A stretch of DNA of 64,000 nucleotides from an uncultured Gammaproteobacteria bacterium (GCA_964515545.1 CAZERI010000002.1:149731-213730); one strand, 5' to 3'; positions 3,229-48,681 are shown, counted from the stretch's first letter. Notes: generated by a model not told the origin, from the sequence alone. Translations and numbers: made by a program.

Positions 3229-3252
3229 CGCTTCAGAATTGACAGACTGCTT

Positions 3253-3822: not shown

Positions 3823-3823
3823 T

Positions 3824-4954: not shown

Positions 4955-4966
4955 TTCTTAGATGAT

Positions 4967-5017
4967 AGGTCTTAGGTCTTAGGTCTTAGGTCTTAGGTCT
5001 TAGGTCTTAGGTCTTAG
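4967..5017. repeat. perfect heptanucleotide microsatellite (AGGTCTT)x7 plus a partial unit, intergenic
   Basis: Read directly: seven uninterrupted AGGTCTT copies at 4967-5015. They lie between the GT4 stop (4954) and the acetyltransferase start (5047). Confidence 0.95.
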
Positions 5018-5046
5018 TTTATATCTTAAGAAAAATACAAACACAT

Positions 5047-13251: not shown

Positions 13252-13312
13252 TCCCGTTTAAGGACAACGTGATCCGACTAACTATACACTGCTCCTAACG
13301 TCTCTTTGATCT

Positions 13313-14413: not shown

Positions 14414-14425
14414 TAAGGTGAATCT

Positions 14426-15508: not shown

Positions 15509-15510
15509 CC

Positions 15511-24759: not shown

Positions 24760-24816
24760 GGAGTTGATGCTACTTAAGAGCAATCAATATAATAATTATT
24801 ATTAATGACTGAATGC

Positions 24817-24840
24817 AACCCGCCATGGCGGGTTTTTTTA
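24817..24840 (+). terminator. intrinsic-terminator-like hairpin in the 5' leader of the purF-purN gene (candidate attenuator)
   Basis: AACCCGC-CATG-GCGGGTT stem-loop followed by TTTTTTT, about 50 nt downstream of the predicted TSS and about 38 nt upstream of RBS GAAAGGA/ATG 24879. No upstream + strand gene for it to terminate. Confidence 0.5.
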
Positions 24841-24878
24841 TGGAAAGACTAGTAGTAGTTGGGAATGAAGATGAAAGG

Positions 24879-27014
24879 ATGCTGCAGGATAAATGCGGTA
24901 TCATAGGGCTGAGCTACCCCGACTGGATGATGGATAGCAAAGGTGAGGCTGCACCTAGCATGGTACGCAATGCTTTAGTAGCACTTCAGCATAGAGGTCA
25001 AGATAGTGCGGGTTTTACCGCTTTAAATGGAGATATGAAGACGTATCACGGGATTGGTCTTATTAACCAGGCAATTCCGGATGAAGATTTAGTAAAGGCA
25101 GGCGGAAGCAGGAGAGCTATTGGACATACACGATATAGAACTAAGGGCAGTATCTCAGGTGAGAACAGTCAGCCTATCCAGGTGCAAAATAATGATTATG
25201 TGCTTAGTCTTGCCCATAATGGCAATCTTACTAACGTTAATTGGCTGCGTGATAATACCGAACAGGTTTTTTCAGAAGATGCATCTGACACGGTTCTTCT
25301 GACTGCTTACCTTCTGCAGCAACGACACCTCTATCCCTCATGGGAGACTACTTTTCAAGAAGAAATGCCTCGTGTTAAAGGTGCATATAGCGCTGTAGCC
25401 TTAACAGAGGATGGAAATCTGCATGGTTTTAGAGACCCTTATGGAATTAGACCCTTTGTCGTCGGAGCATTTAGAGAGGGAGGAGTAATGATGGCCTCAG
25501 AATCTGTCGCTTTTGATACTGTGGGTGCTGAATATAGGAGACAGCTTGAGAGAGGTGAAATTATGACAGTAACTCCTGATGGAGACATACAATCGCTTTT
25601 CTATGGAGAGCCTAAAAGATCGAGATTCTGTACTTTTGAAAATTTTTATTTTCAACGTCCCGAAACATTTAGTAATGGTCAGAGGGTACAGTCAGGCAGG
25701 GTTGAGTCCGGTAGATTACTAGCCGAGAGGATGGAAAGTAAAAATATTAACTTTGATATCGTAGTTCCTACCCCTGCATCAGGATCACTTGCGGGGGAAG
25801 GATTAGCTGAGCGCTCAGGTAAACGGCTGGTCCATGGAGTAGGAACGAGTCATTATCTTGGGAGGACCTTTATTATGCCAGGGGAGGAAAACCGTAAAGA
25901 TGCGGTAAGCAATAAGCATATTATCATGCCGGATGAGCTGGATGATATGTCTGTAGCAGATGAAGACGACTCAACTGTACGCGGAACAACCTCAGGTAAA
26001 ATTACTGAAGAATTACGAAGAGGAGGTGCTCGTGAAGTGCATAAAGCCCTAGCTGCTCCTCCTGTTGTTAATACTTGTGATTTGGGGGTAGATATGCACG
26101 ACCGCTCAGAATTGCCTGCTGCAAAAGTAGCGGATAGATCTCATGAGGAAATAGAAAATTATATGGCACAGGTTATGCATTCGGATACTGCTACATTTCT
26201 TACTCGTGAAGAAGTATCAAGAGCGTTTAATAGGGATGAAAAAGATATGTGCACCTTCTGTCTAGGTGGTGAGCATCCAGTCCATGGCCGACAAGAGGAA
26301 TTTCCTCAACGGGAACGCCAAATGAGAGGCAGGCCAAAGCTTTCAGTTTTTATCTCAGGTAATGGGACTAATCTTCAGGAGATAATAAATGGAACTCAGT
26401 CCGGTACGCTTAAGGGGGAGATTGTCTCAGTTGTCTCGAGTAATCCTTATGCTTTTGGCCTCCGAAGAGCAATGGAGGCAGAACTGCCAATTTTTTCTAT
26501 TAGTTCCAAAGGAAAGTTGAGTAATCCTTTAAAAAGAGCAGAGTACGAAGAAAAATTACTGGATGTGCTCTATTCCAATCTCCCTGATGTTCTGGTTCTG
26601 GCTGGATTTATGAATATATTAGGAGATTCTTTTTTAGAAACTATGCAGGATTTAGAGATACCAGTTGTTAATCTCCATCCAGCTCTTTTGCCTTCTGATA
26701 AGAGGGATCAGATAGCGACTTCTCGAGGAAGAATGCCTGTTCTGAGGGGGACAGATGCGATTGATAAGGCTTTTGATCTTAATTTGCGTGCCTCAGGGGT
26801 AACGGTACATCAGGTACTGCCTGGAAATGAGTGTGATACTGGACCGGTTATTCTTAAAGAAGAAGTCCATCGTCGAGTAGACGATACACCTGAGGAGTGG
26901 GAGAAGAGAATTCATGAAGCAGAATTTAGAGTCCTTCCAACAGCTATTAAGAGAGTTCTTCATGTTATGGAACATGGAATAGATGTCAGCCGAGGTGAGT
27001 TCCCCTGGAGCTAA
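24879..27014 (+). CDS. purF: bifunctional fusion: amidophosphoribosyltransferase (PurF, Ntn glutamine amidotransferase + PRTase) fused to a PurN-like formyltransferase (GAR transformylase) domain
   Basis: N-terminal MLQDK-CGIIGL (propeptide plus catalytic Cys). RGQDSAGF, IGHTRYRTKG, HNGNLTN and the PRTase motif DEDDSTVRGTTS. C-terminal about 200 aa with LSVFISGNGTNLQEII, NLHPALLP and GVTVHQV...DTGPVIL, the Formyl_trans_N/PurN motifs. Start moved to ATG 24879, preceded by GAAAGGA. Confidence 0.8.
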   Translation: MLQDKCGIIGLSYPDWMMDSKGEAAPSMVRNALVALQHRGQDSAGFTALNGDMKTYHGIGLINQAIPDEDLVKAGGSRRAIGHTRYRTKGSISGENSQPIQVQNNDYVLSLAHNGNLTNVNWLRDNTEQVFSEDASDTVLLTAYLLQQRHLYPSWETTFQEEMPRVKGAYSAVALTEDGNLHGFRDPYGIRPFVVGAFREGGVMMASESVAFDTVGAEYRRQLERGEIMTVTPDGDIQSLFYGEPKRSRFCTFENFYFQRPETFSNGQRVQSGRVESGRLLAERMESKNINFDIVVPTPASGSLAGEGLAERSGKRLVHGVGTSHYLGRTFIMPGEENRKDAVSNKHIIMPDELDDMSVADEDDSTVRGTTSGKITEELRRGGAREVHKALAAPPVVNTCDLGVDMHDRSELPAAKVADRSHEEIENYMAQVMHSDTATFLTREEVSRAFNRDEKDMCTFCLGGEHPVHGRQEEFPQRERQMRGRPKLSVFISGNGTNLQEIINGTQSGTLKGEIVSVVSSNPYAFGLRRAMEAELPIFSISSKGKLSNPLKRAEYEEKLLDVLYSNLPDVLVLAGFMNILGDSFLETMQDLEIPVVNLHPALLPSDKRDQIATSRGRMPVLRGTDAIDKAFDLNLRASGVTVHQVLPGNECDTGPVILKEEVHRRVDDTPEEWEKRIHEAEFRVLPTAIKRVLHVMEHGIDVSRGEFPWS

Positions 27015-27650: not shown

Positions 27651-28835
27651 ATGCTTCAGTCAGCAAAAAATTATTTTCATTTATTACAGGCAATTCGGGC
27701 TGTGAGAAAGTATAAGAATCCCTCTCAGAGCTTAACGATAATAGGAGTAACTGGGACTGATGGAAAGACTACTACTGCAAGTCTTATTTACCATATTTTG
27801 AAAGAAGCAGGCTATAAAACAGCTCTCATTTCGACTGTAGCAGCATACATCGAGGATAAGAAATATGACACTGGATTTCACGTCTCGACTCCTGATAGCG
27901 CTACCCTTCAATCATATATCGCAAAAGCCAAAAAAGTCGGTGTAACCCATATTGTGTTGGAGGTAACGTCACACGCTCTTGATCAGCATAGAGTCCATGG
28001 AATTCATTTCGCAATCGGAGTCTTAACGAATATTAGCCATGAGCATTTAGATTATCATAAGACAATGCAACATTATATGCAGGCAAAAGCCAAACTTCTA
28101 GAGAGTTCGGATGTCTCTATTATTAATCGTGATGATGACTCTTATACTTTTATGCAGAATCGTCTAAAAAATAAAAAGGTAATAAGTTATGGTTTGAGCA
28201 ATTTAGCTGACAGCAACCTTTCAAACCATTCTTTTAAAACAAATCTGCCAGGTATATTTAACCAGTCCAATATCTTAGCTGCGTTAACGGTAGCAGATAT
28301 TTTAGAAGTTGATCCTCAGAAAGCTGCCCATGCCATCTCTTCTTTTCACCTTCCTGAAGGGAGAATTGATGTTGTCTACGATAAGGACTTTAAAGTCATT
28401 ATAGATTTTGCACATACGCCGAACGCTCTTAGAAACATTCTGCAGACTCTCAGGGAGACTACTCCTCAGGGAAGGATAATTCATGTCTTTGGCAGTGCAG
28501 GGAAAAGAGATGCAAGCAAGAGACCAGCTATGGGAAAGATTTCTCAAGAGCTTTCTGATATCATCGTCCTAACTTCGGAGGATCCAAGAGATGAGTCACC
28601 TGAAAAAATTGCGGAAGATATCACCTTGGGTATGACAGCCAGCCAGACTAAGCTTTCTTTTATAGCAGATAGACAGGAGGCTATAACTCAGGCGATACGT
28701 CTCGCGGAGAAAGGCGATGTGGTTATTATCACAGGGAAAGGTCATGAAAAATCGATGAATTTAGGCCAGGGAGAAAAAAAATGGAGTGATCATGATGCAG
28801 TAGAGAAAGCCTTAAAAGAATTATGGAAAAATTAA
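27651..28835 (+). CDS. murE: UDP-N-acetylmuramoyl-L-alanyl-D-glutamate--2,6-diaminopimelate (or L-Lys) ligase MurE, short N-terminus
   Basis: Mur ligase P-loop IGVTGTDGKTTT, central DFAHTP and C-terminal LTSEDPRDE (DNPR-like) motifs. Confidence 0.8.
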   Translation: MLQSAKNYFHLLQAIRAVRKYKNPSQSLTIIGVTGTDGKTTTASLIYHILKEAGYKTALISTVAAYIEDKKYDTGFHVSTPDSATLQSYIAKAKKVGVTHIVLEVTSHALDQHRVHGIHFAIGVLTNISHEHLDYHKTMQHYMQAKAKLLESSDVSIINRDDDSYTFMQNRLKNKKVISYGLSNLADSNLSNHSFKTNLPGIFNQSNILAALTVADILEVDPQKAAHAISSFHLPEGRIDVVYDKDFKVIIDFAHTPNALRNILQTLRETTPQGRIIHVFGSAGKRDASKRPAMGKISQELSDIIVLTSEDPRDESPEKIAEDITLGMTASQTKLSFIADRQEAITQAIRLAEKGDVVIITGKGHEKSMNLGQGEKKWSDHDAVEKALKELWKN

Positions 28836-30241
28836 GGAAAATTCATTTTGTAGGAATAAAGGGGGTCGGTATGACGCCTTTAGCGATTATTGCTAAAGAA
28901 GCAGGTATAGAAGTCTCAGGGAGTGATGTAGCAGAGAGATTTATTACCGATGCTGCTCTTAAGAAAGCGGGAATCTACCCTCAGGAAGGATTTATTCCGG
29001 AACATATTACATCAAATATTCAGCTAGTCATAACCACCGGAGCGCATGGTGGGTATGAGAATGTCGAAGTAATCAAAGCCCGTGAACTCTCAATTCCTGT
29101 TATAACCGCAGGAGAGGCTGTTGGGGAATTCATGCAGGGGGATATCTTAGGCAGGAAATTTCAAGGAATTTCCATCACAGGATCACATGGTAAAACTACC
29201 ACGACTGCTATGCTCACCACAATTTTTCAAGAAAATAACTTAGACCCATCATATTTGATCGGAACAGGCAGTTTTGGAGATTCCTTGCCGGGACATTTTG
29301 GTAAGGGGGATTATTTTATAGCTGAAGCAGATGAGTACGCGACTGAGCCGAAGCATAATCATAAGGCACGCTTCCTGTGGCAGCATCCCTCTATGGCTCT
29401 CTTTACTAATATTGAGCATGATCATCCCGATATCTATCCTACTATGGAAAGTATCGTTAAGGTATTTGAAGAATTTGCATTACTTATCCCTCATAATGGA
29501 GTGTTGGTAGGGAATGGAGATAATCCTTATGTCACAAAAATTTTTCAAAAAATGTCCTGCCAGACTATCACTTTTGGCCTATCTCCAAAGAATGACTACG
29601 TAATTGATCGAGTGCATATTTCAAGCAGCCAGACTTTTTTTCGTGCCCATACTAATGAAATTGATTTAGGCGAATTTAGGTTGTCAGTGACAGGGGAACA
29701 TAACGCGCTTAATGCACTTGGAGCTGCAGTTCTTGCGTTAGAGGCTGGCCTTCCCCTTGAGAAAATTAAATCTTCACTTGCGGTATATACCGGATCAAAA
29801 AGGAGACTTGAGTATAGAGGACAACTAACAACAGGAGCGTATGTATTTGATGATTATGCCCATCATCCGACCGAGATTAAAGCTACTCTTAAGTCACTTC
29901 GCCAGCGCTTCCCTCAGTCAACTCTGATTGCTGTCTTTCAGCCACATACCTATACTCGTACCAAGACGCTCCTTGAGGAATTCGTAAAGTCATTTGATGA
30001 TGCTCATAATGTTATTATTACTGATATTTTTGCATCAGCTAGAGAAGTTAAAGATGAGACAGTCTCTTCAAAGCTTCTTCTGCAGAAGCTTGCTACCCGT
30101 CATCCTGCAGCTTTATATATTCCTTCTCCTGAAATGGCAGTGGAGCTTCTTTTAAAAGAGAGACTTAAAGATAATGTGGTAGTTGTTTTTATGGGAGCGG
30201 GAGATATCTATCAGGCTATTGATTTATTGTCTTTTAAATAG
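28823..30241 (+). CDS. murC: UDP-N-acetylmuramate--L-alanine ligase MurC
   Basis: IHFVGIKGVGMTPLA N-terminal MurC signature. P-loop ITGSHGKTTTT. C-terminal Mur ligase domain. Confidence 0.85.
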   Translation: MEKLRKIHFVGIKGVGMTPLAIIAKEAGIEVSGSDVAERFITDAALKKAGIYPQEGFIPEHITSNIQLVITTGAHGGYENVEVIKARELSIPVITAGEAVGEFMQGDILGRKFQGISITGSHGKTTTTAMLTTIFQENNLDPSYLIGTGSFGDSLPGHFGKGDYFIAEADEYATEPKHNHKARFLWQHPSMALFTNIEHDHPDIYPTMESIVKVFEEFALLIPHNGVLVGNGDNPYVTKIFQKMSCQTITFGLSPKNDYVIDRVHISSSQTFFRAHTNEIDLGEFRLSVTGEHNALNALGAAVLALEAGLPLEKIKSSLAVYTGSKRRLEYRGQLTTGAYVFDDYAHHPTEIKATLKSLRQRFPQSTLIAVFQPHTYTRTKTLLEEFVKSFDDAHNVIITDIFASAREVKDETVSSKLLLQKLATRHPAALYIPSPEMAVELLLKERLKDNVVVVFMGAGDIYQAIDLLSFK

Positions 30242-30255
30242 GGCAAAATGGTATA

Positions 30256-31602
30256 ATGCAGACGATGGACAAGTACATAATCACAGGCGGAAATGTCTTA
30301 AAGGGAGAAGTAAGAGCCAGCGGTGCTAAGAATGCAGCCCTTAAAGCATTAGTAGCAGCCTGTCTTACTGATGAAGAAGTAATAATTAAAAATGTTCCCG
30401 AGATTGCTGATGTCTATGTAATGCTTGAGATCATGAAAGAACTCGGAGCAAAGGTGAGTTTTACTGATCACACAGTCCGCGTCCAGATGCAGGATTTTGT
30501 CACCCATAAGCTTTCACTGGAAAAAGCAGCACAAGCAAGAACTTCTTCTATGTTCATCGCTCCTCTTTTAGCACGATATAAAGAAGCTATTGTCCCTAAT
30601 CCTGGTGGTTGCAGATTAGGCGCTCGGCCTATTGATCGGACAATCGAGGGAATTGTTCATATGAATGCTCATATCCATTACGACAGTGATGATGGCTATT
30701 TCCATGCGAAGACCGTAGGGCTGCAGGGGATTGATTACACCTTTACCAAGAATACTCATACCGGTACTGAGACGCTCATCTTAGCTGCAGCTTTAGCAGA
30801 AGGGACAACTGTCCTGCATAATGCAGCAGAGGAACCTGAGATTGATGACTTGATAGGGTTGATTAATGCCATGGGTGGGAACGTAGAGCGGACCAATGCG
30901 AGAGAAATTACTATCGTGGGAGCAAAAAAACTCCATGGTGCATCATATACCATTAGCCCTGATCGGAATGAAGTAGTTACATTTGCTATTATGGCCTATG
31001 TTACTAAAGGTGATGTTTTTGTGAGAGATGCCCAAAAGGTAGACTTACAGGCATTCTACGAAAAATTAGATCAAGCAGGAGCATCCTATGAAAAAAAAGA
31101 AGATGGAGTAAGATTCTATTACGAAAAACCGCTGCAGGCAGTGAGTGTAGAAACCGCGATTTATCCGGGATTTATGACTGATTGGCAGGCACCATGGGCA
31201 GTCTTAATGACGCAAGCGATTGGAGAATCTATTGTCCATGAGACAGTATTTGAAAATAAATTATCATATATCAATGATTTAAAGAAGATGGGAGCAGCGG
31301 TGACGCTTTTTAATCCTGAAGTTGCCGATCCTGAGAAAGTGTATAACTTTAATCTAGAAGATAATGATCCGTCTTTTTTTCATGCAGTTAAGATTGTCGG
31401 CCCTAAACCACTTCATAATGCTGTGGTCATGATGGCAGATATCAGAGCGGGGGCTGCTGTAGTTCTGGCAGCGTTGTGCGCAAGCGGTGAAAGTTATATC
31501 TTAGATGTTCAGAAGCTGGACCGTGGGTATGAGCATTTTGAAGAAAGAATCCAAGCTCTTGGAGCGAGTATTAAGCGTGTTCGGGGTGAAGAAGTATTAT
31601 GA
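30256..31602 (+). CDS. murA: UDP-N-acetylglucosamine 1-carboxyvinyltransferase MurA
   Basis: YIITGGNVLKGEVRASGAKNAALK. EPSP-synthase fold, about 448 aa. Confidence 0.9.
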   Translation: MQTMDKYIITGGNVLKGEVRASGAKNAALKALVAACLTDEEVIIKNVPEIADVYVMLEIMKELGAKVSFTDHTVRVQMQDFVTHKLSLEKAAQARTSSMFIAPLLARYKEAIVPNPGGCRLGARPIDRTIEGIVHMNAHIHYDSDDGYFHAKTVGLQGIDYTFTKNTHTGTETLILAAALAEGTTVLHNAAEEPEIDDLIGLINAMGGNVERTNAREITIVGAKKLHGASYTISPDRNEVVTFAIMAYVTKGDVFVRDAQKVDLQAFYEKLDQAGASYEKKEDGVRFYYEKPLQAVSVETAIYPGFMTDWQAPWAVLMTQAIGESIVHETVFENKLSYINDLKKMGAAVTLFNPEVADPEKVYNFNLEDNDPSFFHAVKIVGPKPLHNAVVMMADIRAGAAVVLAALCASGESYILDVQKLDRGYEHFEERIQALGASIKRVRGEEVL

Positions 31603-32360
31603 CATCGTCTCAAGTCGGAGCAATTATTCTAGCAGCAGGGAAGGGGAAGCGAATGCAGAGTATCTCCATGAACAAAACTGCCTCTCTTCTTGGCAACAAA
31701 CCTATGATTCAGCATATTGTTGAATTTATGCAGAAAATATCTATTGGGCAAATAATTATAGTAGTAGGTTTTGCGAAGGAATCAGTAGAGAAAGCTTTAG
31801 AGGGATTTAATGTGACATATGCAGAGCAGACAGAACAATTAGGAACTGGTCACGCTGTTAAGGAAGCAATGAGAGAACTGCATCCTCAGATAAAAGATGT
31901 CTTAGTTGTCTATGGTGATGATGCAGTACTTTATAATAGTAACAACTCTCAAGTTGTTGCTGACTTGATTAGAAAACATCAGTCAGAAGGTAATTCAGTA
32001 ACGTTCCTTACTATTGAGCAGGATGATCCTACTGGCCTGGGAAGAATTATCCGCGATGAGAAGGGGGAGGCACTAGGAATTGTTGAGGAGAAAAATGCCA
32101 GCGATGAACAAAGAAAAATCACTGAAATAAATCCTGGCTGTTTTGTCTTTAGTGTGGAGTTCTTGAAAAAGTATATAAAGAGTATTGAAAAAAATGAGGT
32201 ATCAGGAGAGTATTACTTAACTGATCTGGTAGATATTGCTCGGACTAACCAGCTAAAGATGAATACAGTAAAAGGCGGTAAGCTGCTATGGCGAGGAGTT
32301 AATACTCCTGAAGAGTTACAGACTGCTCAAAAAATGATGGGAGAAATACTGCATGGATAA
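31599..32360 (+). CDS. stand-alone GlmU-N-like sugar-1-phosphate uridylyltransferase domain (UDP-GlcNAc pyrophosphorylase) lacking the LbetaH acetyltransferase domain
   Basis: AIILAAGKGKRM and EQTEQLGTGHAV motifs of the GlmU N-terminal domain. Only 253 aa, with no hexapeptide repeats. Confidence 0.7.
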   Translation: MTSSQVGAIILAAGKGKRMQSISMNKTASLLGNKPMIQHIVEFMQKISIGQIIIVVGFAKESVEKALEGFNVTYAEQTEQLGTGHAVKEAMRELHPQIKDVLVVYGDDAVLYNSNNSQVVADLIRKHQSEGNSVTFLTIEQDDPTGLGRIIRDEKGEALGIVEEKNASDEQRKITEINPGCFVFSVEFLKKYIKSIEKNEVSGEYYLTDLVDIARTNQLKMNTVKGGKLLWRGVNTPEELQTAQKMMGEILHG

Positions 32361-32787
32361 TATCGAATTTAAAAAAGTTCTGGAATTTACTCCTGAAATT
32401 GGGAAAGCTATACGGGATCTTACTGATCAGCTGGATAAAAACCACCAAGAGCTTTCGGATACTGATATAAGAGACATGATAGAGAATCCAGGGACTCATC
32501 TTCTAATCGCAAAAGATGCAGAACATATCGTTGGGATGATAACACTCATCGTGTATAGAATTCCTTTTAAGATGAAAGCTCAGCTGGAAGATTTTATTAT
32601 TGATGAAAGTATGCGGGGTAAAGGACTGGGAACTAAATTACTCCAATTTTCTATAGATGAGGCCAAAAAAGCCGGAGTGAAGTCCCTTAACCTGACATCC
32701 CGTCCCATCCGTGAGTCAGCAAATCTCCTCTATCAAAAAATGGGATTTCAAAAACGTGATACCAATGTGTATAGGATGGAACTATGA
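32353..32787 (+). CDS. GNAT family N-acetyltransferase
   Basis: Acetyl-CoA binding motif RGKGLGTKLLQFSIDEAKKAGV (Q/RxxGxG/A). 144 aa. Confidence 0.8.
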   Translation: MDNIEFKKVLEFTPEIGKAIRDLTDQLDKNHQELSDTDIRDMIENPGTHLLIAKDAEHIVGMITLIVYRIPFKMKAQLEDFIIDESMRGKGLGTKLLQFSIDEAKKAGVKSLNLTSRPIRESANLLYQKMGFQKRDTNVYRMEL

Positions 32788-33458
32788 CAAGTACCTTTCA
32801 AGAGAAAAAAGTACTTTTATTAGACATTGATCATACACTTTTTGATACCCGCCTTTATACAAATCTTTGCTACCAGGAAATCTTTACCTATACTGGTAGC
32901 TCAGATAAAGAAGAATTTATCAGGGTATGTAATCAATTGTACGCAGAACAAAGGAAAGTAGGTCCTTTTACTACTTCTCAGTTTATAGATAGCTTATATG
33001 TGGTTTTTCCTATCCAGACAAAGAGAAGCACTTTAGAAAAAATATTTGCAGATGAAACAATAATTAGAAAAGCTCTTTATCCTGATACTGAAGAAACACT
33101 TCAGAAATTATCTCAACGAAAGGATCTCCTCATAGGTGTTTTCTCGACAGGTCCTCTCCATCATCAAAGATCTAAAATAAATTCACTTCTTAGTTATTTT
33201 CACCAAGAGCATATTCATATCAATGAGGCAGATAAGATAAAAGATATCCCTTCGATCCTTGAAAGACATAAGGAGAGGAAGGTCTATGTTGTTGATGATT
33301 TAGCAAAAGTATTACATAATTTCAAAGCAAAAAATGATAGTATAATTACGATCCTTATAGAGAGAGACGTTATTTTGACAAAAGATCAGGTACTGGATTT
33401 TGAGCCTGATTATAGAGTAAAATCGCTTGACGAAATAATACAGATCATAAATATGTAG
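32784..33458 (+). CDS. HAD-superfamily hydrolase/phosphotransferase
   Basis: Motif I LLLDIDHTLFDT (DxDxT). About 224 aa Rossmannoid. Specificity unknown. Confidence 0.6.
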   Translation: MTSTFQEKKVLLLDIDHTLFDTRLYTNLCYQEIFTYTGSSDKEEFIRVCNQLYAEQRKVGPFTTSQFIDSLYVVFPIQTKRSTLEKIFADETIIRKALYPDTEETLQKLSQRKDLLIGVFSTGPLHHQRSKINSLLSYFHQEHIHINEADKIKDIPSILERHKERKVYVVDDLAKVLHNFKAKNDSIITILIERDVILTKDQVLDFEPDYRVKSLDEIIQIINM

Positions 33459-33474
33459 TTATTTTGGTAACCAT

Positions 33475-35235
33475 ATGTGTGGAATATTTGGATATATCGG
33501 TACTAGAACAGACGCTCCAGAGATAGTCTTGGATGGATTAAAACTCTTGGAATATCGTGGATATGATTCCTGGGGTATCGCTGCTAAGGTCGATAAGACT
33601 ATCGAGGTTGATAAGCATGTGGGTAAGATTGGTAATGCTACTATTAACTTCCCTCCTAGCAGTCTGAGTATTGGGCATACCCGTTGGGCAACCCATGGTG
33701 GTGTTACTGATATCAATGCTCACCCTCACCTCGACTGCACCAGACAGATTGCAGTAATACATAATGGAATTATAGAAAATTTTGAAGAGATAAAAGAAGA
33801 ATTACTACAGAAAGGACATACCTTTATTTCCGAAACTGACACTGAAGTAGTTCCTCACCTTATTGAGGAGCATCTTAAAACACAGGGGTTTGCACATGCA
33901 TTTAGGAATGCTTTTAATCGACTTCATGGGCTGAATGCGATAGTGGTCGCCTATGCACCCTCTAAAGAAATCATGGCAGCCAAGACTGGTTCACCGCTTG
34001 TTTTAGGTATTGGCGATGAAGAACTTTTCCTCGCGTCTGATTCTGCAGGAATTATTCCTCATACCAGAAAGCTAATCTTTATGAAAGACGGAGAGATGGC
34101 AATCTTAGGGAAGAAGCTGCAGCTTATTGCATTGAAAACCGGGGATCAGATTGAACCAGTAATAGAGGAAGTAAATTGGAAAGTAGAAGATGTGCAAAAA
34201 GGCGAGTACGACCATTTCATGCTCAAAGAAATGCATGAGCAGTCACAAATTGTCCGCAATATTGCAAGTACATATGACGATCAAGTGAGAGATATGGCTG
34301 CATTGATAAAAAATGCGTATGGTACTTATTTTATTGGCGCTGGCACTGCCTATCATGCAACTTTAGCAGGAACCTATCTTTTCTCAAAAATTGCTAAGAA
34401 GCATGTTAATACGTCACTTGCCTCAGAATTTAATTATCTTGAGGACTTTTTAACAGATAGGAGTTTAGTTATCCCTTTATCTCAGTCGGGGGAGACAATT
34501 GACGTTATTGAGCCTCTTACTCGGGCTAAAGAAAAAGGGAGTAAGATTGCAGCTCTTGTTAATGTCCTCGGCTCAACAATTTATCGCATGGCTGATAAAA
34601 AAATTCTTATTGGTGCTGGTCCAGAAAAAGCAGTCGCATCTACGAAAGCCTATATTGCTAAGTTAAGTGTGCTTATCCAGCTTGCTTATGCTCTTAGTGG
34701 CGAGTTAGAAGAGGGAAAGAAAGTTTTGGAAAAGGCTGCAGGCGAAATAGATAAAATACTTGGTGAAGACATGAAACAAACTATTGATACGATAGCTGAT
34801 GTCCTTTTAGATGCTGAGCATATCTATACTGTTGGGCGCGGATTATCATTTGCTACTTCTTTGGAGGCAGCATTAAAAATAAAAGAAATTAGCTACATTC
34901 ATACTGAAGGACTTGCAGGAGGAGAACTTAAGCATGGCCCGATAGCTCTTATTTCTCAGGGCACACCATGTATTGTATTCGCTCCAAGTGATGAAACGTA
35001 TTCTGCAATGATCTCCAATGCACGCGAAATTAAAGCTAGGGGAGGAGTAATCATAGGCGTTGGATCGAAAAAAGAGGAAGTATATGATCACTTCATCAAA
35101 GTAGGAGACTGCGGTGCAGCATCATTAATTGCACAAATTGTCCCTATGCAGTATCTTGCTTATAAATTGGCAGTAAAGAAAAATTTGGATCCTGACAAAC
35201 CCCGTAATCTAGCAAAAAGCGTTACGGTAAAGTGA
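33475..35235 (+). CDS. glmS: glutamine--fructose-6-phosphate aminotransferase GlmS
   Basis: MCGIFGYIG Ntn start, two SIS domains and C-terminal KSVTVK. 586 aa. Confidence 0.95.
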   Translation: MCGIFGYIGTRTDAPEIVLDGLKLLEYRGYDSWGIAAKVDKTIEVDKHVGKIGNATINFPPSSLSIGHTRWATHGGVTDINAHPHLDCTRQIAVIHNGIIENFEEIKEELLQKGHTFISETDTEVVPHLIEEHLKTQGFAHAFRNAFNRLHGLNAIVVAYAPSKEIMAAKTGSPLVLGIGDEELFLASDSAGIIPHTRKLIFMKDGEMAILGKKLQLIALKTGDQIEPVIEEVNWKVEDVQKGEYDHFMLKEMHEQSQIVRNIASTYDDQVRDMAALIKNAYGTYFIGAGTAYHATLAGTYLFSKIAKKHVNTSLASEFNYLEDFLTDRSLVIPLSQSGETIDVIEPLTRAKEKGSKIAALVNVLGSTIYRMADKKILIGAGPEKAVASTKAYIAKLSVLIQLAYALSGELEEGKKVLEKAAGEIDKILGEDMKQTIDTIADVLLDAEHIYTVGRGLSFATSLEAALKIKEISYIHTEGLAGGELKHGPIALISQGTPCIVFAPSDETYSAMISNAREIKARGGVIIGVGSKKEEVYDHFIKVGDCGAASLIAQIVPMQYLAYKLAVKKNLDPDKPRNLAKSVTVK

Positions 35236-35264: not shown

Positions 35265-36824
35265 ATGCGAATGGATGGAATGTATATTTTTACATCGGTG
35301 GCTTTTTTTATCTGGGCACTGCGCTCGATTTCCTATTGGATTAATCAGTGGCAGAGGTTATCTAGTGGAACACTTCAAGTAAGGTCTCCATTCAAATATG
35401 TAGTAAAAACATTTTTTTCGCCCTTTTCAGTTATTAGCTGGACGGGAGTTATTTTTGCTTTTTATATAACTATCGTAGATCTACCCCTCATTTACTACGA
35501 ATCTTTTATATTCTTTATATTTATTTTCAAAGCGGTATTTACTCTTATTGATCTTGGAGGAGGTAGGGTAACTCTTCCCCGATTTACCTGGCAGAACAGT
35601 ATTATTAGCTGTCTGGCAGTTATTTTAACAGCTGTTGTAATTGCCCTTCCTCTAACTGAAAGGTATTTGTGGCTTTTGTTAGTCGATAGAATGCTTTTTC
35701 TTTTTGTTGCATTACCTGTCTTTCTTATTTTATTTCCTAGTGAAATTTTGGATGATATTCAGTTAAGAAGAGCAGAACAGCTAATCAGAAAATTAAGAAG
35801 AATTAAGCCTGTTTTTATTCTTGGAGAGAATGCTACAGAGACAGCTTATTTTATGCAGCAGACTATCAGAAAGAAAAGGACTGTAATTGTAATAGAAGGT
35901 CCATTTATGAGGCCCGGATTTATAGCTAAGTCTATTATAAAAAATACTACCCCCAAAACAGATTTTATTTTCATTGTTATTCCGAAAATACACCTATCAT
36001 TACTTAATACTATAGCGAGAATAGTTCCGCCGGCTTTTGTTATTTTTTTGGATAAAGATCCAAAAGTATTTCAGAAAACAATAAAAGTACTTGATCCTTC
36101 TATTTCTAAAAATACCTCTCTTATTATGGATCAGGCAGTAAAAAATACAGCTGCTAGTAAGAGAAGAAACGTCTTCTCATTTGATGCACAAATTGGAGGA
36201 TCTCAGAAAAGTGATATTGCTCTGCTTTCATTCATGCAGAAAAAAGATGAACTGCAGATTTCCCTACGTCTTGATAGAGAAATGCAGATAAAAATTCCTG
36301 TTATTGGCAGCCATCATCTGCTTTACCTTCTTCCAGGGTTTCTTTTCGCTCATTTAATTGGATTTACGGAAGAAGAGCTGATAGCAGTTCAGAATTATAA
36401 CAGCCCAATGCCTGGAAGATTGGTAGGGCATATACTTCATTCAGGAATTGTCATTATTGATGCTACCCGTATCAAACAAAAAACTGAGGTAAGTGGCTCT
36501 CTTGAATACTTAAAAATTTATCATAAGAAAAAAATTGTGGTCTTTGGTATAGATGATGAGTTGAGTGCAGATGAGATAAAATCTCTTAAGACAGAATTCT
36601 CCCAGCCTACTTTGGTAATAGTCTTGAGACAGAAATACCAGCAGCTTATCAGAAGGCTTGTTCGTGTCGGTACAGGGAAATCAGAGGTAAAATTCAGTAA
36701 CGAGGAAGGAGTCCTTCAGCTCGTTTTAGATGAGTTAGGAAAAGGAGATGTAGTTCTTCTTATCGGTAAAGATGCAGAAGCGTTAGTCGAATCAATTTTG
36801 CTGTCCTCGCGAACACTTAGGTAA
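35265..36824 (+). CDS. MurF-like Mur-ligase homologue with degenerate ATP-binding loop and an N-terminal polytopic membrane domain (putative pseudoenzyme)
   Basis: About 170-aa hydrophobic N-terminus (4-5 TM). Then VFILGENATET where MurF has ITGSNGKTT (no Lys/Thr of Walker A), a retained VIVIEG (catalytic Glu region), IGSHHLLYLLPGFLFAHLIG...PMPGRL (MurF middle/C-domain-like) and VVFGIDDEL. Sits exactly where murF normally precedes mraY. Confidence 0.45.
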   Translation: MRMDGMYIFTSVAFFIWALRSISYWINQWQRLSSGTLQVRSPFKYVVKTFFSPFSVISWTGVIFAFYITIVDLPLIYYESFIFFIFIFKAVFTLIDLGGGRVTLPRFTWQNSIISCLAVILTAVVIALPLTERYLWLLLVDRMLFLFVALPVFLILFPSEILDDIQLRRAEQLIRKLRRIKPVFILGENATETAYFMQQTIRKKRTVIVIEGPFMRPGFIAKSIIKNTTPKTDFIFIVIPKIHLSLLNTIARIVPPAFVIFLDKDPKVFQKTIKVLDPSISKNTSLIMDQAVKNTAASKRRNVFSFDAQIGGSQKSDIALLSFMQKKDELQISLRLDREMQIKIPVIGSHHLLYLLPGFLFAHLIGFTEEELIAVQNYNSPMPGRLVGHILHSGIVIIDATRIKQKTEVSGSLEYLKIYHKKKIVVFGIDDELSADEIKSLKTEFSQPTLVIVLRQKYQQLIRRLVRVGTGKSEVKFSNEEGVLQLVLDELGKGDVVLLIGKDAEALVESILLSSRTLR

Positions 36825-36829
36825 TTTGA

Positions 36830-37879
36830 TTGAACTCACACTGTATCAGGAGTATAATACTGAATATGGCTGCACTTTTGGGGCTTACTATTCTTTCATT
36901 TTTTGTTAATATTATCCTCTTTGTTCCTTTCATAGATTTTTTGTACAGAGCTAAATTAAGGCGACAGCACCAGGAGACTCGTGATCTTTTTAATAACAGG
37001 ACGCCAATTTTTGATAAATTTCATAAGCTCAAGGCAGGGACTCCGGTAGGCGGTGGAATACTAATTATTGTTCTTACCTGCGTACTCACCATTTGGTCGT
37101 ATGGAATTTTAAATGTTCCCACTAAGGCGTGGGAGATGTTCGTTATTTTCTTCTCAATTATTACGTTTGGTGCATTAGGAATGCTTGATGACTGGAAGAA
37201 AATAGCTGATCCGACCCAAAAAAACGTTTTTTTCGGACTGCGTTTTAGGCATAAATTTATTATCCAGTGGATACTTGCATTAATTATTGCGACTGTTTTT
37301 TACTTTCAGTTAGGCTACTCATTTATTTACCTTCATGGGATAGGACTGATTAGTATTGGAGTCCTTTTTATTCCTTTTGCTGCATTTGTAATTGTATCTT
37401 TTGTTAATGCGGTGAATATCACAGATGGGCTTGATGGACTTGCTTCAGGGCTTTTAGTCATCTGTCTAGTGGGATTTTTGGCAATTAACTCTCAGCAGAT
37501 AGATAAGTCTCTTGGAGTATTTATCTCCATCCTTCTTGGATCAGTGATGGCATTTCTTTACTTTAATATTTATAAAGCAAGGATATGGCTTGGAGATGTC
37601 GGATCCCTTGCCTTAGGTGCTTCTCTAGCAGTTATTGGACTTTTAACAGGAAAGACAATCACCATTGGAGTTATTGGGGGAGTTTTTATCATAGAGATAG
37701 CTTCATCTCTTCTCCAAATCCTTAGCAAGAAGTACTTAAAAAGGAAGCTCTTTCCGGCTGCCCCTTTCCATTTGAATCTTCAGCAGCGCGGGTGGGAAGA
37801 GCCAAAGATTGTAATGCGTGCATGGCTAGTGGGTATCCTCTTTGCAGTATTGGGTGTTTACTTGGCATTCCTCTCTTAA
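36830..37879 (+). CDS. mraY: phospho-N-acetylmuramoyl-pentapeptide transferase MraY
   Basis: NAVNITDGLDGLASG and other MraY/WecA family motifs. 10 TM. True start may be the internal Met at 36866. Confidence 0.9.
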   Translation: MNSHCIRSIILNMAALLGLTILSFFVNIILFVPFIDFLYRAKLRRQHQETRDLFNNRTPIFDKFHKLKAGTPVGGGILIIVLTCVLTIWSYGILNVPTKAWEMFVIFFSIITFGALGMLDDWKKIADPTQKNVFFGLRFRHKFIIQWILALIIATVFYFQLGYSFIYLHGIGLISIGVLFIPFAAFVIVSFVNAVNITDGLDGLASGLLVICLVGFLAINSQQIDKSLGVFISILLGSVMAFLYFNIYKARIWLGDVGSLALGASLAVIGLLTGKTITIGVIGGVFIIEIASSLLQILSKKYLKRKLFPAAPFHLNLQQRGWEEPKIVMRAWLVGILFAVLGVYLAFLS

Positions 37880-45600: not shown

Positions 45601-46533
45601 CTATAAATGTAGCAAAGATCCATAAGCCTGTCTATAGGTTTTTCTAAATTCTTTTATAGTAAAAGTATGCTCCTGAGTGCCGAATTTAGCTACCGCAAAC
45701 GCTCCTGCAACTGCTCCCATTTGACCACAGGTGAGGAGATCATAATTCCTTTGCATACCTGCCAAGAAACCGCCTCTCCATGCATCTCCTGCGCCTGTTG
45801 TCGAGACAATAGCTTCAAGCTTAACCGGCTTTATCATGATTTTTTTGCCTTTATCGCTTATCTCAGCTCCTTTATCTCCCTGTGTAGTAATAATAATTTT
45901 TTGTTTAAGGAGTTCTTTAAAATTTTTAACTCTTGATCTAATCAAATTTATCTCGTATTCATTGCCGATAATAATCTTAGCATGATTCATCCCAAGACTG
46001 AGATCTCGGTTTGAGACTTCAGTTAGGATAAATCCAGGGTCGAACATGTATGGAATGTGATAGGTAATACACTGTCTAATAAAGTTGAGTGAACCTTGAG
46101 CACCTTGAGGTCCAATGAGGACAAGATCAATTGGTTCTTTGATCATGGCAAGATCAAGCTTTGTGTTCTTAGCTCCAGCACCATAATAATATCCCCAAAT
46201 TTGATTTTGGGTTTTATCCGTCATAGCAAAACCCGTAGCAGTATGTTCATCTTTCTCAATAAAAACATACGAAGTATTTATTTTTAGCTGGGTAAATTTT
46301 TTCTTATAATCTCTGAAATCGTTACCTGCATATGAGAGCAGAAGGTGAGGAGTTTTGAGTAGACCCAAGGTATATGAGGCATTACCAGCTGTGCCTCCAC
46401 GTCGTCTGGCAAATTTGTTAACAATAAAAGACAGGTTAATGTTATGCGTCTGATCAGGAAGGATGTAATCTCCAAAACTTCCTGGGAACTCCATGATATA
46501 GTCATATGCTAAAGATCCTGTCACAACAATCAT
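45601..46533 (-). CDS. PfkB-family carbohydrate/nucleoside kinase (ribokinase/adenosine kinase-like)
   Basis: N-terminal GG motif (RRGGTAGNASY) and C-terminal TTGAGDAWRGGF (DTxGAGD anion hole). Confidence 0.8.
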   Translation of the reverse strand: MIVVTGSLAYDYIMEFPGSFGDYILPDQTHNINLSFIVNKFARRRGGTAGNASYTLGLLKTPHLLLSYAGNDFRDYKKKFTQLKINTSYVFIEKDEHTATGFAMTDKTQNQIWGYYYGAGAKNTKLDLAMIKEPIDLVLIGPQGAQGSLNFIRQCITYHIPYMFDPGFILTEVSNRDLSLGMNHAKIIIGNEYEINLIRSRVKNFKELLKQKIIITTQGDKGAEISDKGKKIMIKPVKLEAIVSTTGAGDAWRGGFLAGMQRNYDLLTCGQMGAVAGAFAVAKFGTQEHTFTIKEFRKTYRQAYGSLLHL

Positions 46534-48541: not shown

Positions 48542-48681
48542 ATTTCTACTCTTTCAGGGTCGGGTGACTCGCAGTGGCGAGAATTCCCAATCGGTAGTTA
48601 CACTCTACGAGTTTTCCTAATTAGGAGACAGGAGTCTGTTAGACACAGACAGCGACGGTATAGTCCGGATAGAAGAAAGAT

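What the first reader, a model, noticed from the sequence alone, without database searches (positions are those of the whole stretch)
31599..35235. Split, possibly eukaryote/archaeal-style UDP-GlcNAc supply module embedded in the dcw cluster (GlmU uridyltransferase domain only, GNAT, HAD, GlmS)
Bacterial GlmU is normally bifunctional, with an N-terminal uridyltransferase plus a C-terminal left-handed beta-helix acetyltransferase acting on GlcN-1-P. Here the GlmU-like ORF is only 253 aa: the uridyltransferase domain with LAAGKGKRM and QLGTGHAV, and no hexapeptide repeats. It is immediately followed, with translational coupling, by a GNAT acetyltransferase, then a HAD-family protein, then GlmS. 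No glmM is in the window. GNAT is the fold eukaryotes use (GNA1) to acetylate GlcN-6-P. The arrangement suggests non-orthologous replacement of the GlmU acetyltransferase domain, and perhaps of GlmM, by GNAT (+HAD) proteins. These are placed next to murA/murC/mraY, which consume UDP-GlcNAc.
Basis: partly seen in the sequence, partly recalled or inferred. Interest (0 to 1): 0.6.

Follow-up and report, generated by a model that had tools for sequence, protein, structure and literature searches.

The report
Short GlmU paired with GNAT acetyltransferase
In this candidate-phylum (Levybacteria) genome the enzyme that makes the cell-wall precursor UDP-GlcNAc has lost its usual acetyltransferase half, and a small unrelated acetyltransferase gene always sits right behind it, making that gene a concrete candidate for a "missing" enzyme the field has recently flagged as unidentified.

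Summary
At 31599-35235 four co-directional genes, overlapping or nearly abutting, encode a 253-aa GlmU uridyltransferase domain with no LbetaH domain, a 144-aa GNAT, a 224-aa HAD-fold protein and GlmS. They lie between murA and mraY in a dcw cluster of a Levybacteria-type (Patescibacteria) genome.

GlmU-N followed directly by the GNAT recurs in about 20 distinct related loci, down to 37% GNAT identity. All 5 short GlmUs sampled independently of the GNAT have it downstream. In two loci GNAT-HAD-GlmS lies outside dcw, next to a YvcK/CofD-family gene.

The GNAT belongs to a distinct family (625 clusters at E<=1e-30) with an invariant, strongly cationic acceptor site. Its closest characterised relative is the apicomplexan GlcN-6-P acetyltransferase GNA1 (PDB 6yug), and several of that enzyme's sugar-binding residues are conserved.

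The most likely reading is that the GNAT non-orthologously replaces the lost GlmU acetyltransferase domain. Whether it acts on GlcN-6-P or GlcN-1-P is unresolved.

The idea that the HAD replaces GlmM is not supported. Orthologues lose the cap domain or are absent. Absence of glmM genome-wide could not be tested.

Monofunctional GlmU is already known (Bacteroidetes, 2015). The partner acetyltransferase was called "unidentified" in a 2026 preprint.

The parts
30256..31602 (+). murA (UDP-GlcNAc enolpyruvyl transferase), the first consumer of UDP-GlcNAc. Its stop overlaps the start of the next gene by 4 nt.
   Evidence: PF00275 at 265.7 bits. Coordinates.
31599..32360 (+). Monofunctional GlmU: the GlcNAc-1-P uridyltransferase domain only, 253 aa, ending in the helical linker. 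No LbetaH domain.
   Evidence: TIGR01173 positions 3-236/452, 207 bits. PDB GlmU residues 1-235 at 140 bits, with the LAAGKGxRM, QLGTGHA, YGD, DDPTG.GRI, EINxG, GEYY.TD and GVN motifs aligned. All 120 best homologues are 240-260 aa with no Hexapep domain.
32353..32787 (+). GNAT acetyltransferase of a distinct family. It is the candidate glucosamine-phosphate N-acetyltransferase that replaces the GlmU C-domain.
   Evidence: PF00583. Family alignment A1. AF2 model pLDDT 95. CpGNA1 (6yug): HMM 47.9 bits, hhalign 97.8% probability, TM 0.82. Invariant D80, R120, Y127, R135 in 86/86 sequences. Lies directly downstream of GlmU-N in all Levybacteria-type loci that have upstream sequence.
32784..33458 (+). 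HAD-superfamily protein (subfamily IA, C1 cap) with intact DxDxT, S/T, K and DD motifs. Accessory component, probably a phosphatase. Role unresolved.
   Evidence: Weak Pfam HAD hits. YjjG-family hit at 25.7 bits. Motif alignment showing long and capless orthologues. AF2 model pLDDT 83. Foldseek returns generic HADs.
33475..35235 (+). glmS (glutamine--fructose-6-P aminotransferase), which makes GlcN-6-P.
   Evidence: NF001484 at 643 bits, TIGR01135 at 627 bits. Begins with MCGI.
27651..30241 (+). Upstream dcw context: a MurE-like ligase (394 aa) and MurC (472 aa).
   Evidence: Pfam Mur_ligase domains.
35265..37879 (+). Downstream dcw context: a membrane-anchored MurF-like protein (519 aa) and MraY.
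   Evidence: TIGR01143 murF at 35.5 bits over residues 285-501. PF00953 at 104 bits.

Best explanation
This is the UDP-GlcNAc supply module of a Levybacteria-type (Patescibacteria, Microgenomates) bacterium, transcribed as part of the dcw operon.

Proposed pathway: GlmS makes GlcN-6-P. The 144-aa GNAT supplies the N-acetyltransferase activity that other bacteria carry as the LbetaH C-terminal domain of GlmU. The 253-aa monofunctional GlmU then uridylylates GlcNAc-1-P to UDP-GlcNAc, which MurA, encoded immediately upstream, consumes.

Shown: domain content, loss of the LbetaH domain, conserved and translationally coupled GlmU-N -> GNAT pairing, a second independent linkage GNAT-HAD-GlmS-YvcK, and sequence and structure similarity to the apicomplexan GNA1.

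Inferred: that the GNAT's acceptor is a glucosamine phosphate. I favour GlcN-6-P (the eukaryote-like order, about 55-60% given the main hypothesis) over GlcN-1-P. Also inferred: that the 6-P/1-P mutase step is done by an alpha-phosphohexomutase encoded outside the window, and that the HAD protein is an accessory phosphatase rather than the mutase.
For: 1. The GlmU is truncated but otherwise a genuine GlmU uridyltransferase domain. The whole clade of 120 nearest homologues is 240-260 aa with no Hexapep domain.
2. The GlmU-N -> GNAT gap is -8 to +13 nt in nearly all of ~20 distinct loci, with GNAT identity from 80% down to 37%.
3. All 5 short GlmUs picked by GlmU similarity alone have the GNAT next.
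4. In L021 (a Levybacteria chromosome) and L037, GNAT-HAD-GlmS lies outside dcw and is followed by a CofD/YvcK-family gene at 285-310 bits. The B. subtilis member YvcK (GlmR) is, from my own knowledge, a UDP-GlcNAc-sensing activator of GlmS.
5. Among characterised enzymes, the best PDB profile hit is C. parvum GNA1 (6yug): 47.9 bits nearly full length, hhalign 97.8% probability with 28% identity, Foldseek TM 0.82/0.82.
6. CpGNA1 sugar-binding or catalytic residues T117, Y127 and R141 (PMC7587441) align with T115, Y127 and R141, which are invariant or near-invariant here. E80-H81 aligns with E79-D80.
7. The family has further invariant basic residues (R120 and R135 in 86/86, K/R75 in 80/86), which fits an anionic acceptor.
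8. The only LbetaH protein in the window is a WcaF-type EPS O-acetyltransferase.
9. The literature recognises the gap: a 2026 preprint refers to 'an unidentified acetyltransferase' in bacteria with only the GlmU N-domain (bioRxiv 10.64898/2026.06.23.733835).
Against: There is no biochemical evidence.

Similarity to GNA1 is not exclusive. Uncharacterised GNATs (1z4e, 3pp9) score higher, and polyamine or histone acetyltransferases score about the same. Foldseek ranks many GNATs alike. CpGNA1 Arg113 has no conserved counterpart, and Arg73 falls in an insert.

The same GNAT family, with the same signature residues, occurs in Acidimicrobiia, Anaerolineae and Bacteroidota in unrelated or lipid-metabolism contexts with no GlmU nearby. 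The only fusions found are with HPPK or NUDIX, not GlmU.

A separate LbetaH gene or a full-length glmU elsewhere in the genome cannot be excluded from 64 kb.
Confidence: 0.58

Rival explanations
1. GlcNAc salvage or auxotrophy. As in Capnocytophaga canimorsus, the monofunctional GlmU reflects loss of de novo GlcNAc synthesis. The episymbiotic CPR cell takes GlcNAc from its host, and the GNAT has an unrelated substrate (protein, polyamine, antibiotic, lipid head group) and merely rides in the operon.
For: C. canimorsus has a monofunctional GlmU, lacks GlmM and the acetyltransferase, and is a GlcNAc auxotroph (PMC4358021). The GNAT family occurs widely outside CPR with no hexosamine context. Sequence scores to GNA1 overlap those to polyamine and histone acetyltransferases.
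Against: An intact GlmS is encoded in the same operon, which is pointless if GlcN-6-P cannot be acetylated. The GNAT is translationally coupled to GlmU-N across about 20 loci and is separately linked to GlmS and YvcK. No nagA, nagK or anomeric-kinase genes were seen in the window. RimI model scores 44 bits against a cut-off of 86.
Confidence: 0.17
2. Split GlmU. The LbetaH GlcN-1-P acetyltransferase domain still exists as a separate gene elsewhere in the genome, and the GNAT does something else.
For: The 2026 preprint reports species that encode the two GlmU domains as separate genes. Only about 64 kb of a genome of roughly 1 Mb could be inspected.
Against: The only LbetaH ORF in the window (5047-5601) is WcaF-like at 107 bits, matches GlmU at 37 bits over 41 residues, and lies in a glycosyltransferase/Wzy cluster. 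No LbetaH gene lies within +/-10 kb of GlmU-N in any related locus (gene tables). This reading does not explain the strict GlmU-N/GNAT coupling.
Confidence: 0.12
3. Full eukaryote-like bypass. The GNAT acetylates GlcN-6-P and the HAD protein is a HAD-type phosphomutase converting GlcNAc-6-P to GlcNAc-1-P, so no GlmM/AGM1-type enzyme is needed.
For: The gene order MurA, GlmU-N, GNAT, HAD, GlmS is the pathway in reverse, with the HAD where a mutase would fit. HAD-fold phosphomutases exist (beta-PGM and eukaryotic PMM, from my own knowledge). HAD catalytic motifs are intact. No alpha-phosphohexomutase is in the window.
Against: Orthologues at the same position are capless (155-162 aa) in at least 8 loci, and the gene is missing in L017, L025 and L054. 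A cap that encloses the substrate is generally needed to retain the bisphosphate intermediate (from my own knowledge). Foldseek neighbours are dehalogenases, YjjG/YfnB and HDHD4 phosphatases, and a putative beta-PGM ranks only 20th at TM 0.62.
Confidence: 0.08

Closest known systems
Bifunctional bacterial GlmU (E. coli type; TIGR01173)
   Same: The N-terminal uridyltransferase domain is clearly orthologous, at 140 bits to PDB GlmUs with all signature motifs aligned. It serves the same pathway and the same product.
   Different: It lacks the entire LbetaH acetyltransferase domain and ends in the linker helix at residue 253. It is encoded inside the dcw cluster next to murA.
Monofunctional GlcNAc-1-P uridyltransferase GlmU_Cc of Capnocytophaga canimorsus and other Bacteroidetes (Renzi et al. 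2015, PMC4358021)
   Same: It is a uridyltransferase-only enzyme in a bacterium, which shows that GlmU need not be bifunctional.
   Different: In C. canimorsus it goes with loss of GlmM and of acetylation, giving GlcNAc auxotrophy. Here GlmS and a coupled GNAT are present, which points to de novo synthesis. Orthology to Ccan_15070 was not tested.
Apicomplexan-specific GNA1 (C. parvum, P. falciparum; PDB 6yug; PMC7587441, PMC5838249)
   Same: It is a small GNAT of about 145 aa. It is the best characterised PDB relative. The shared features are the Y.IP...K..IE.V motif, the catalytic Tyr127, Thr117/T115, and the C-terminal FEK.xT.V.R motif including the essential Arg141.
   Different: Identity is only about 25-28%. 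CpGNA1 Arg73 and Arg113 are not conserved. The bacterial family instead has invariant R120 and R135 and an Asp where CpGNA1 has His81. Activity is untested.
Classical eukaryotic GNA1 (yeast, human, C. elegans, Arabidopsis)
   Same: GNAT fold. The proposed reaction is the same. An ED dipeptide at the beta4 bulge is shared according to my recollection of ScGNA1, which I did not test here.
   Different: Matches are weaker: 4ag7 at 41.6 bits, 3cxp/2huz at 33-34 bits, 3t90 at 31.7 bits with Foldseek rank 44. The classical enzymes have extra secondary-structure elements.
S. aureus NagU / eukaryotic UAP1-type uridyltransferase (bioRxiv 10.64898/2026.06.23.733835)
   Same: Another recently recognised departure from the canonical GlmS-GlmM-GlmU scheme in bacteria. 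The same paper notes GlmU-N-only species that need an unidentified acetyltransferase.
   Different: In that case the uridyltransferase is the replaced component, whereas here it is the acetyltransferase. No UAP1-like gene is in the window.

Membership tests
Bifunctional GlmU (TIGR01173 equivalog) | N-terminal GlcNAc-1-P uridyltransferase domain with the LxxGxGxRM and QLGTGHA motifs | tested here: met
   Matches model positions 3-236. PDB alignment to GlmU residues 1-235.
Bifunctional GlmU (TIGR01173 equivalog) | C-terminal left-handed beta-helix (hexapeptide) GlcN-1-P acetyltransferase domain; full-length score at or above the cut-off | tested here: not met
   No Hexapep hit in Pfam. 207 bits against a cut-off of 366.85. 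The protein ends at residue 253.
Monofunctional GlcNAc-1-P uridyltransferase (GlmU_Cc-like) | Uridyltransferase domain alone, with no acetyltransferase domain | tested here: met
Monofunctional GlcNAc-1-P uridyltransferase (GlmU_Cc-like) | UTP + GlcNAc-1-P -> UDP-GlcNAc activity; orthology to Ccan_15070 | not testable with these tools
   Needs an enzyme assay.
GNA1, glucosamine-6-phosphate N-acetyltransferase (EC 2.3.1.4) | GNAT fold with the catalytic Tyr before the C-terminal strand | tested here: met
   AF2 model pLDDT 95. Y127 present in 86/86 sequences and aligned to CpGNA1 Tyr127.
GNA1, glucosamine-6-phosphate N-acetyltransferase (EC 2.3.1.4) | Conservation of the GlcN6P-binding residues defined in CpGNA1 (Arg73, His81, Arg113, Thr117, Arg141) | tested here: inconclusive
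   Thr117 aligns with T115 and Arg141 with R141 (conserved). His81 aligns with D80. Arg73 lies in an insert. Arg113 is not conserved. Other invariant Arg residues are present.
GNA1, glucosamine-6-phosphate N-acetyltransferase (EC 2.3.1.4) | Closer to GNA1 than to other GNAT subfamilies | tested here: inconclusive
   CpGNA1 is the top characterised hit but ranks third overall. Its 47.9 bits compare with 43-46 bits for polyamine and Hpa2 acetyltransferases. Foldseek rank is 6.
GNA1, glucosamine-6-phosphate N-acetyltransferase (EC 2.3.1.4) | Acetyl-CoA + GlcN-6-P -> GlcNAc-6-P activity; homodimer with a shared sugar site | not testable with these tools
   Needs an enzyme assay. No multimer prediction was available.
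RimI (ribosomal protein S18 alanine acetyltransferase) | Score at or above the TIGR01575 cut-off | tested here: not met
   44.3 bits against a cut-off of 86.4.
HAD-type phosphomutase (beta-PGM / PMM-like) | HAD core motifs I-IV | tested here: met
   DIDHT, S121, K151 and DD171-172 are conserved in 17 orthologues.
HAD-type phosphomutase (beta-PGM / PMM-like) | Conserved substrate-enclosing cap domain; closest structural relatives are phosphomutases | tested here: not met
   The cap is absent in at least 8 orthologues. Top Foldseek hits are dehalogenases and phosphatases, with a putative beta-PGM at rank 20.
GlmS | N-terminal Cys glutaminase domain plus two SIS domains; score at or above the cut-off | tested here: met
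   643 bits against a cut-off of 381. Begins MCGI.
GlmM / alpha-D-phosphohexomutase | Presence of a PGM_PMM protein ([ST]ASHNP and DxDxDR motifs) in the window or genome | tested here: not met
   None found in the window in six frames or by Pfam. The genome-wide question is not testable with these tools.

The most novel reading that the evidence does not exclude
This GNAT family is the general 'missing' bacterial glucosamine-6-phosphate N-acetyltransferase. It has at least 625 clusters at 50% identity and is found in Patescibacteria, Bacteroidota, Chloroflexota and Actinomycetota. If so, lineages with monofunctional GlmU, including the many Bacteroidetes genera previously inferred to be GlcNAc auxotrophs, make UDP-GlcNAc by a eukaryote-like order of steps: acetylate at the 6-phosphate stage, then isomerise. 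The 'apicomplexan-specific' GNA1 would then be a relative of this bacterial family, possibly acquired by horizontal transfer.
Probability: 0.25. Interest if true: 0.85.

Novelty: new variant of a known kind. Interest (0 to 1): 0.64.

Why it matters
GlmU is treated as a universally essential bifunctional enzyme and as an antibiotic target.

It is already known that some bacteria have only its uridyltransferase half. For those organisms the acetylation step is either assumed lost, giving auxotrophy (Renzi 2015), or attributed to 'an unidentified acetyltransferase' (2026 preprint).

This locus offers a specific, cheaply testable candidate family for that enzyme, backed by strong comparative-genomic evidence. 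If confirmed, four things would follow:
1. It would add a genuine non-orthologous displacement in an essential cell-wall pathway.
2. It would correct the routine mis-annotation of about 250-aa proteins as 'bifunctional GlmU' in Patescibacteria.
3. It would change inferences about amino-sugar auxotrophy in CPR and possibly in Bacteroidetes.
4. It might reveal the bacterial relatives of the apicomplexan GNA1, which is being pursued as a drug target.

Tried and rejected
1. RmlA or another NDP-sugar pyrophosphorylase identity for the 253-aa ORF: rejected. GlmU scores 104-140 bits and other classes at most 39 bits. RmlA models score 33-66 bits against 207 bits for GlmU.

2. The free LbetaH ORF at 5047-5601 as a split GlmU C-domain: rejected. 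It is WcaF-type and sits in the EPS cluster.

3. A Rosetta-stone GlmU-N-GNAT fusion: none among the 150 best family representatives. The long members are HPPK-GNAT, NUDIX-GNAT or carry unannotated extensions.

4. Using the non-CPR homologues' neighbourhoods to infer function: no common context. Anaerolineae show lipid genes and Bacteroidota show nothing conserved.

5. Searching for glmM: none in the window or in the related +/-10 kb loci. TASHNP/DPDADR motifs appear only in three Microthrix loci, 6-7 kb from the GNAT.

7. HAD homologue search by word index: it returned only 3 proteins, so the HAD model rests on a 3-sequence alignment (pLDDT 83).

8. Literature searches for a prior description of GNAT plus short GlmU in CPR: nothing found.

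9. Promoter and terminator scan inside the block: no more sites than in shuffled sequence.

10. glmS ribozyme or other RNA elements near the block: none. The only Rfam hit in the window is an FMN riboswitch elsewhere.

Full report
OBSERVATION.
- 31599-32360: 253 aa.
- 32353-32787: 144 aa, with an 8-nt overlap.
- 32784-33458: 224 aa, with a 4-nt overlap.
- 33475-35235: 586 aa, after a 16-nt gap.
murA (30256-31602) overlaps the first gene by 4 nt.

The block sits in a complete dcw cluster on one strand:
- MraZ 21039, MraW 21469, FtsI 22649
- a PurF/PurN-like fusion 24813, YdjM 27015
- a MurE-like ligase 27651, MurC 28823, MurA
- [the four-gene block]
- a membrane-anchored MurF-like protein 35265, MraY 36830, FtsW 37932, MurG 39002
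- FtsA 40535, FtsZ 41883

Promoter- and terminator-like sites inside the block are no more frequent than in shuffled sequence, which is consistent with one transcription unit. The nearest relatives are named Candidatus Levyibacteriota or Levybacteria, a phylum of the Microgenomates group of Patescibacteria.

THE SHORT GlmU. The 253-aa protein matches GlmU models only over their N-terminal half: TIGR01173 positions 3-236 of 452, at 207 bits against a full-length cut-off of 367. It has no hexapeptide domain. Its 17 best PDB matches are all residues ~1-240 of bacterial GlmUs at 104-140 bits. The next enzyme class scores 39 bits. The aligned motifs are LAAGKGxRM, QLGTGHA, YGD, DDPTG.GRI, EINxG, GEYY.TD and GVN. 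It is therefore a true GlmU uridyltransferase domain and not an RmlA-like enzyme.

It is not an isolated truncation either. The 120 best homologues in a database of 5.8 billion proteins are all 240-260 aa and carry NTP_transferase domains only. Many are auto-annotated as 'bifunctional GlmU'.

THE GNAT AND ITS LINKAGE. The 144-aa GNAT belongs to a tight family (alignment A1). An exhaustive profile search finds 625 representative clusters at E<=1e-30, nearly all stand-alone proteins of about 145 aa.

A scan of one genome per species found 275 relatives. Eighteen of the 80 loci kept from that scan, together with L007-L010 found earlier by exact-protein look-up, have the Levybacteria-type dcw layout. 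Several of these MAG records carry other taxon names, which I did not verify. In every such locus with upstream sequence, a GlmU-N of 245-262 aa lies immediately upstream. The intergenic distance is -8 to +13 nt, with one exception of 138 nt. GNAT identity to the window ranges from 80% down to 37%.

The reverse sampling agrees. Five short GlmUs were chosen only by similarity to GlmU, and all five have the GNAT next.

In two loci GNAT-HAD-GlmS lies outside dcw and is followed by a CofD/YvcK-family gene. These are L021, a complete Levybacteria chromosome, and L037. The B. subtilis member YvcK (GlmR) is, from my own knowledge, a UDP-GlcNAc-responsive activator of GlmS. This is a second, independent link between the GNAT and HAD genes and hexosamine synthesis.

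WHAT KIND OF GNAT. No curated model claims it: RimI scores 44 bits against a cut-off of 86. A profile search of the PDB gives two uncharacterised GNATs first (1z4e, 3pp9). Third is 6yug, which is the Cryptosporidium parvum GNA1 with acetyl-CoA and Glc6P. It scores 47.9 bits and aligns over residues 18-147. Classical GNA1s follow at 32-42 bits, interleaved with polyamine and histone acetyltransferases.

The AlphaFold model is confident at pLDDT 95. Foldseek ranks 6yug sixth, with TM 0.82/0.82 and 25% identity. Hhalign gives 97.8% probability and 28% identity over 110 columns.

The structural paper (PMC7587441) names Arg73, His81, Arg113 and Thr117 as Glc6P ligands. It names Tyr127 as the catalytic residue and Arg141 as essential. 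In the alignments:
- Thr117 aligns with T115 (81/86 Thr, the rest Ser).
- Tyr127 aligns with Y127 (86/86).
- Thr137 aligns with T137 (85/86).
- Arg141 aligns with R141 (22/22 in the GlmU-linked clade).
- Glu80-His81 aligns with E79-D80 (D80 in 86/86).
- Arg73 falls in a three-residue insert, and Arg113 has no conserved counterpart.
The bacterial family has its own invariant R120 and R135 (86/86) and K/R75 (80/86).

So the family is GNA1-like in fold and in several functional positions, and it has a conspicuously cationic conserved acceptor site. It is nevertheless a distinct family, and the similarity is not exclusive enough to prove the substrate.

CAVEAT FROM THE WIDER FAMILY. Homologues with the same signature occur in Acidimicrobiia, Anaerolineae and Bacteroidota, including Segatella copri, Alistipes and Arenibacter. 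None has GlmU within 10 kb and there is no common context. In Anaerolineae the neighbours are lipid genes: a CDP-alcohol phosphatidyltransferase-like gene, a PlsC-like gene and a DAG-kinase-like gene. The few fusions are HPPK-GNAT and NUDIX-GNAT. This neither supports nor excludes a hexosamine role outside CPR.

It is notable that Bacteroidetes is the phylum where monofunctional GlmU is documented, in 30 of 45 genera (PMC4358021). I could not test co-occurrence.

THE HAD PROTEIN. Motifs I-IV (DxDxT, S/T, K, DD) are conserved. The model (pLDDT 83) shows a Rossmann-like core with a helical C1 cap. Three observations argue against a phosphomutase that replaces GlmM:
- Orthologues at the same position come in a long form (216-227 aa) and a capless form (155-162 aa).
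- The gene is absent in L017, L025 and L054.
- Foldseek neighbours are generic subfamily-IA members: haloacid dehalogenases, YfnB/YjjG, and human HDHD4 (NANP). A putative beta-PGM ranks only 20th.
I regard it as an accessory phosphatase of unknown substrate. A sugar phosphate, UMP or PPi are speculative options.

OTHER CANDIDATES IN THE WINDOW.
- The only LbetaH protein (5047-5601) is a WcaF-family EPS O-acetyltransferase inside a glycosyltransferase/Wzy cluster.
- No PGM_PMM protein or motif is present.
- No NagA, NagB or anomeric kinase is present.
- The PfkB kinase at 45601-46533 is ribokinase/nucleoside-kinase-like.
Whether glmM, an AGM1-like mutase, or a separate LbetaH gene exists elsewhere in the genome cannot be decided from 64 kb.

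COMPARISON WITH WHAT IS KNOWN. Monofunctional GlcNAc-1-P uridyltransferase in bacteria is established: C. canimorsus GlmU_Cc, where it accompanies GlcNAc auxotrophy (PMC4358021). [quoted passage not shown] I found no paper that links a GNAT to short GlmU in CPR or elsewhere.

The truncated GlmU is therefore not new. The conserved GNAT partner, and its relation to the apicomplexan GNA1, appears to be new.

VERDICT.

The best explanation (confidence about 0.58) is non-orthologous replacement of the GlmU acetyltransferase domain by a dedicated GNA1-like GNAT, co-translated with a monofunctional GlmU and GlmS inside the dcw operon. GlcN-6-P is somewhat favoured over GlcN-1-P as the acceptor. The mutase is probably encoded elsewhere, and the HAD is an accessory enzyme.

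I rate it a new variant of a known kind, with interest 0.64. It turns an acknowledged gap into a directly testable hypothesis.

Noticed in passing
window 35265-36824 (+): A 519-aa protein between glmS and mraY. It has a hydrophobic N-terminal region of about 170 aa that looks multi-spanning, and a weak MurF/Mur-ligase C-terminal part (TIGR01143 at 35.5 bits over residues 285-501; Mur_ligase_C at 22.9 bits). It is conserved at this position in related loci (397-542 aa). It may be a membrane-anchored, highly divergent MurF or MurD.
   Followed up: partly
window 27651-28835 (+): A MurE-like ligase of only 394 aa, with Mur_ligase_M and _C domains but no N-terminal Mur ligase domain. It is conserved as 392-426 aa in relatives. 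No MurD, MurB or Ddl was seen in the window's dcw cluster, whereas several relatives (L007, L010, L092, L096) have a MurB-like FAD_binding_4 gene between murC and murA.
   Followed up: no
window 24813-27014 (+): A 733-aa ORF that combines class-II glutamine amidotransferase domains (PurF-like) with a C-terminal Formyl_trans_N domain (PurN-like), inserted in the dcw cluster between ftsI and ydjM. Most relatives lack it at this position.
   Followed up: no
window 48546-48684 (+) and 48682-49602 (+): An FMN riboswitch (RF00050, 69.1 bits) lies immediately upstream of an EamA-family transporter. This is probably a riboflavin importer under FMN control.
   Followed up: no
window 2296-16176 (+): A large surface-polysaccharide cluster. 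It contains GT2 and GT4 glycosyltransferases, a WcaF-type O-acetyltransferase (5047-5601), a 1032-aa Wzy_C-containing membrane protein, a PMT_2 protein, a ManC-like GDP-mannose pyrophosphorylase (14426-15508), and a Bac_transf priming transferase. A ManC implies that a phosphomannomutase (PGM/PMM family) exists somewhere in the genome.
   Followed up: partly
L021 13035-14042 and L037 12873-13925: A CofD/YvcK-family gene directly follows GNAT-HAD-GlmS in two loci outside the dcw cluster. If it is GlmR-like, it suggests regulation of GlmS in these CPR genomes.
   Followed up: partly
L040, L050, L053, L062, L063, L066, L067, L086, L091 (Anaerolineae): The GNAT homologue overlaps the 3' end of a ~240-aa CDP-alcohol phosphatidyltransferase-like membrane protein gene. 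PlsC-like acyltransferase and DAG-kinase-like genes lie nearby. This suggests a possible link to an amino-sugar or amino-alcohol lipid head group.
   Followed up: partly
L094 6690-9500: GlmS is called as a 936-aa product, about 350 aa longer than usual, in one Levybacteria genome (GCA_016214555.1). It could be an intein, a fusion with the downstream MurF-like gene, or an assembly artefact.
   Followed up: no
L013, L014, L017, L025, L070, L022, L037 (record titles): Several MAG records have the Levybacteria-type dcw layout but are titled 'uncultured Gammaproteobacteria', 'Candidatus Sulfotelmatobacter' or 'Limnocylindrales'. These are probably mis-assigned taxonomy or mis-binned contigs.
   Followed up: no
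one search hit list (e.g. P0061, P0062, P0077, P0087): GlmU-N-only proteins of about 250 aa are routinely annotated as 'bifunctional UDP-N-acetylglucosamine pyrophosphorylase/glucosamine-1-phosphate N-acetyltransferase'. One is annotated as a MurE ligase. This is systematic mis-annotation that would hide the missing acetyltransferase step in metabolic reconstructions.
   Followed up: partly
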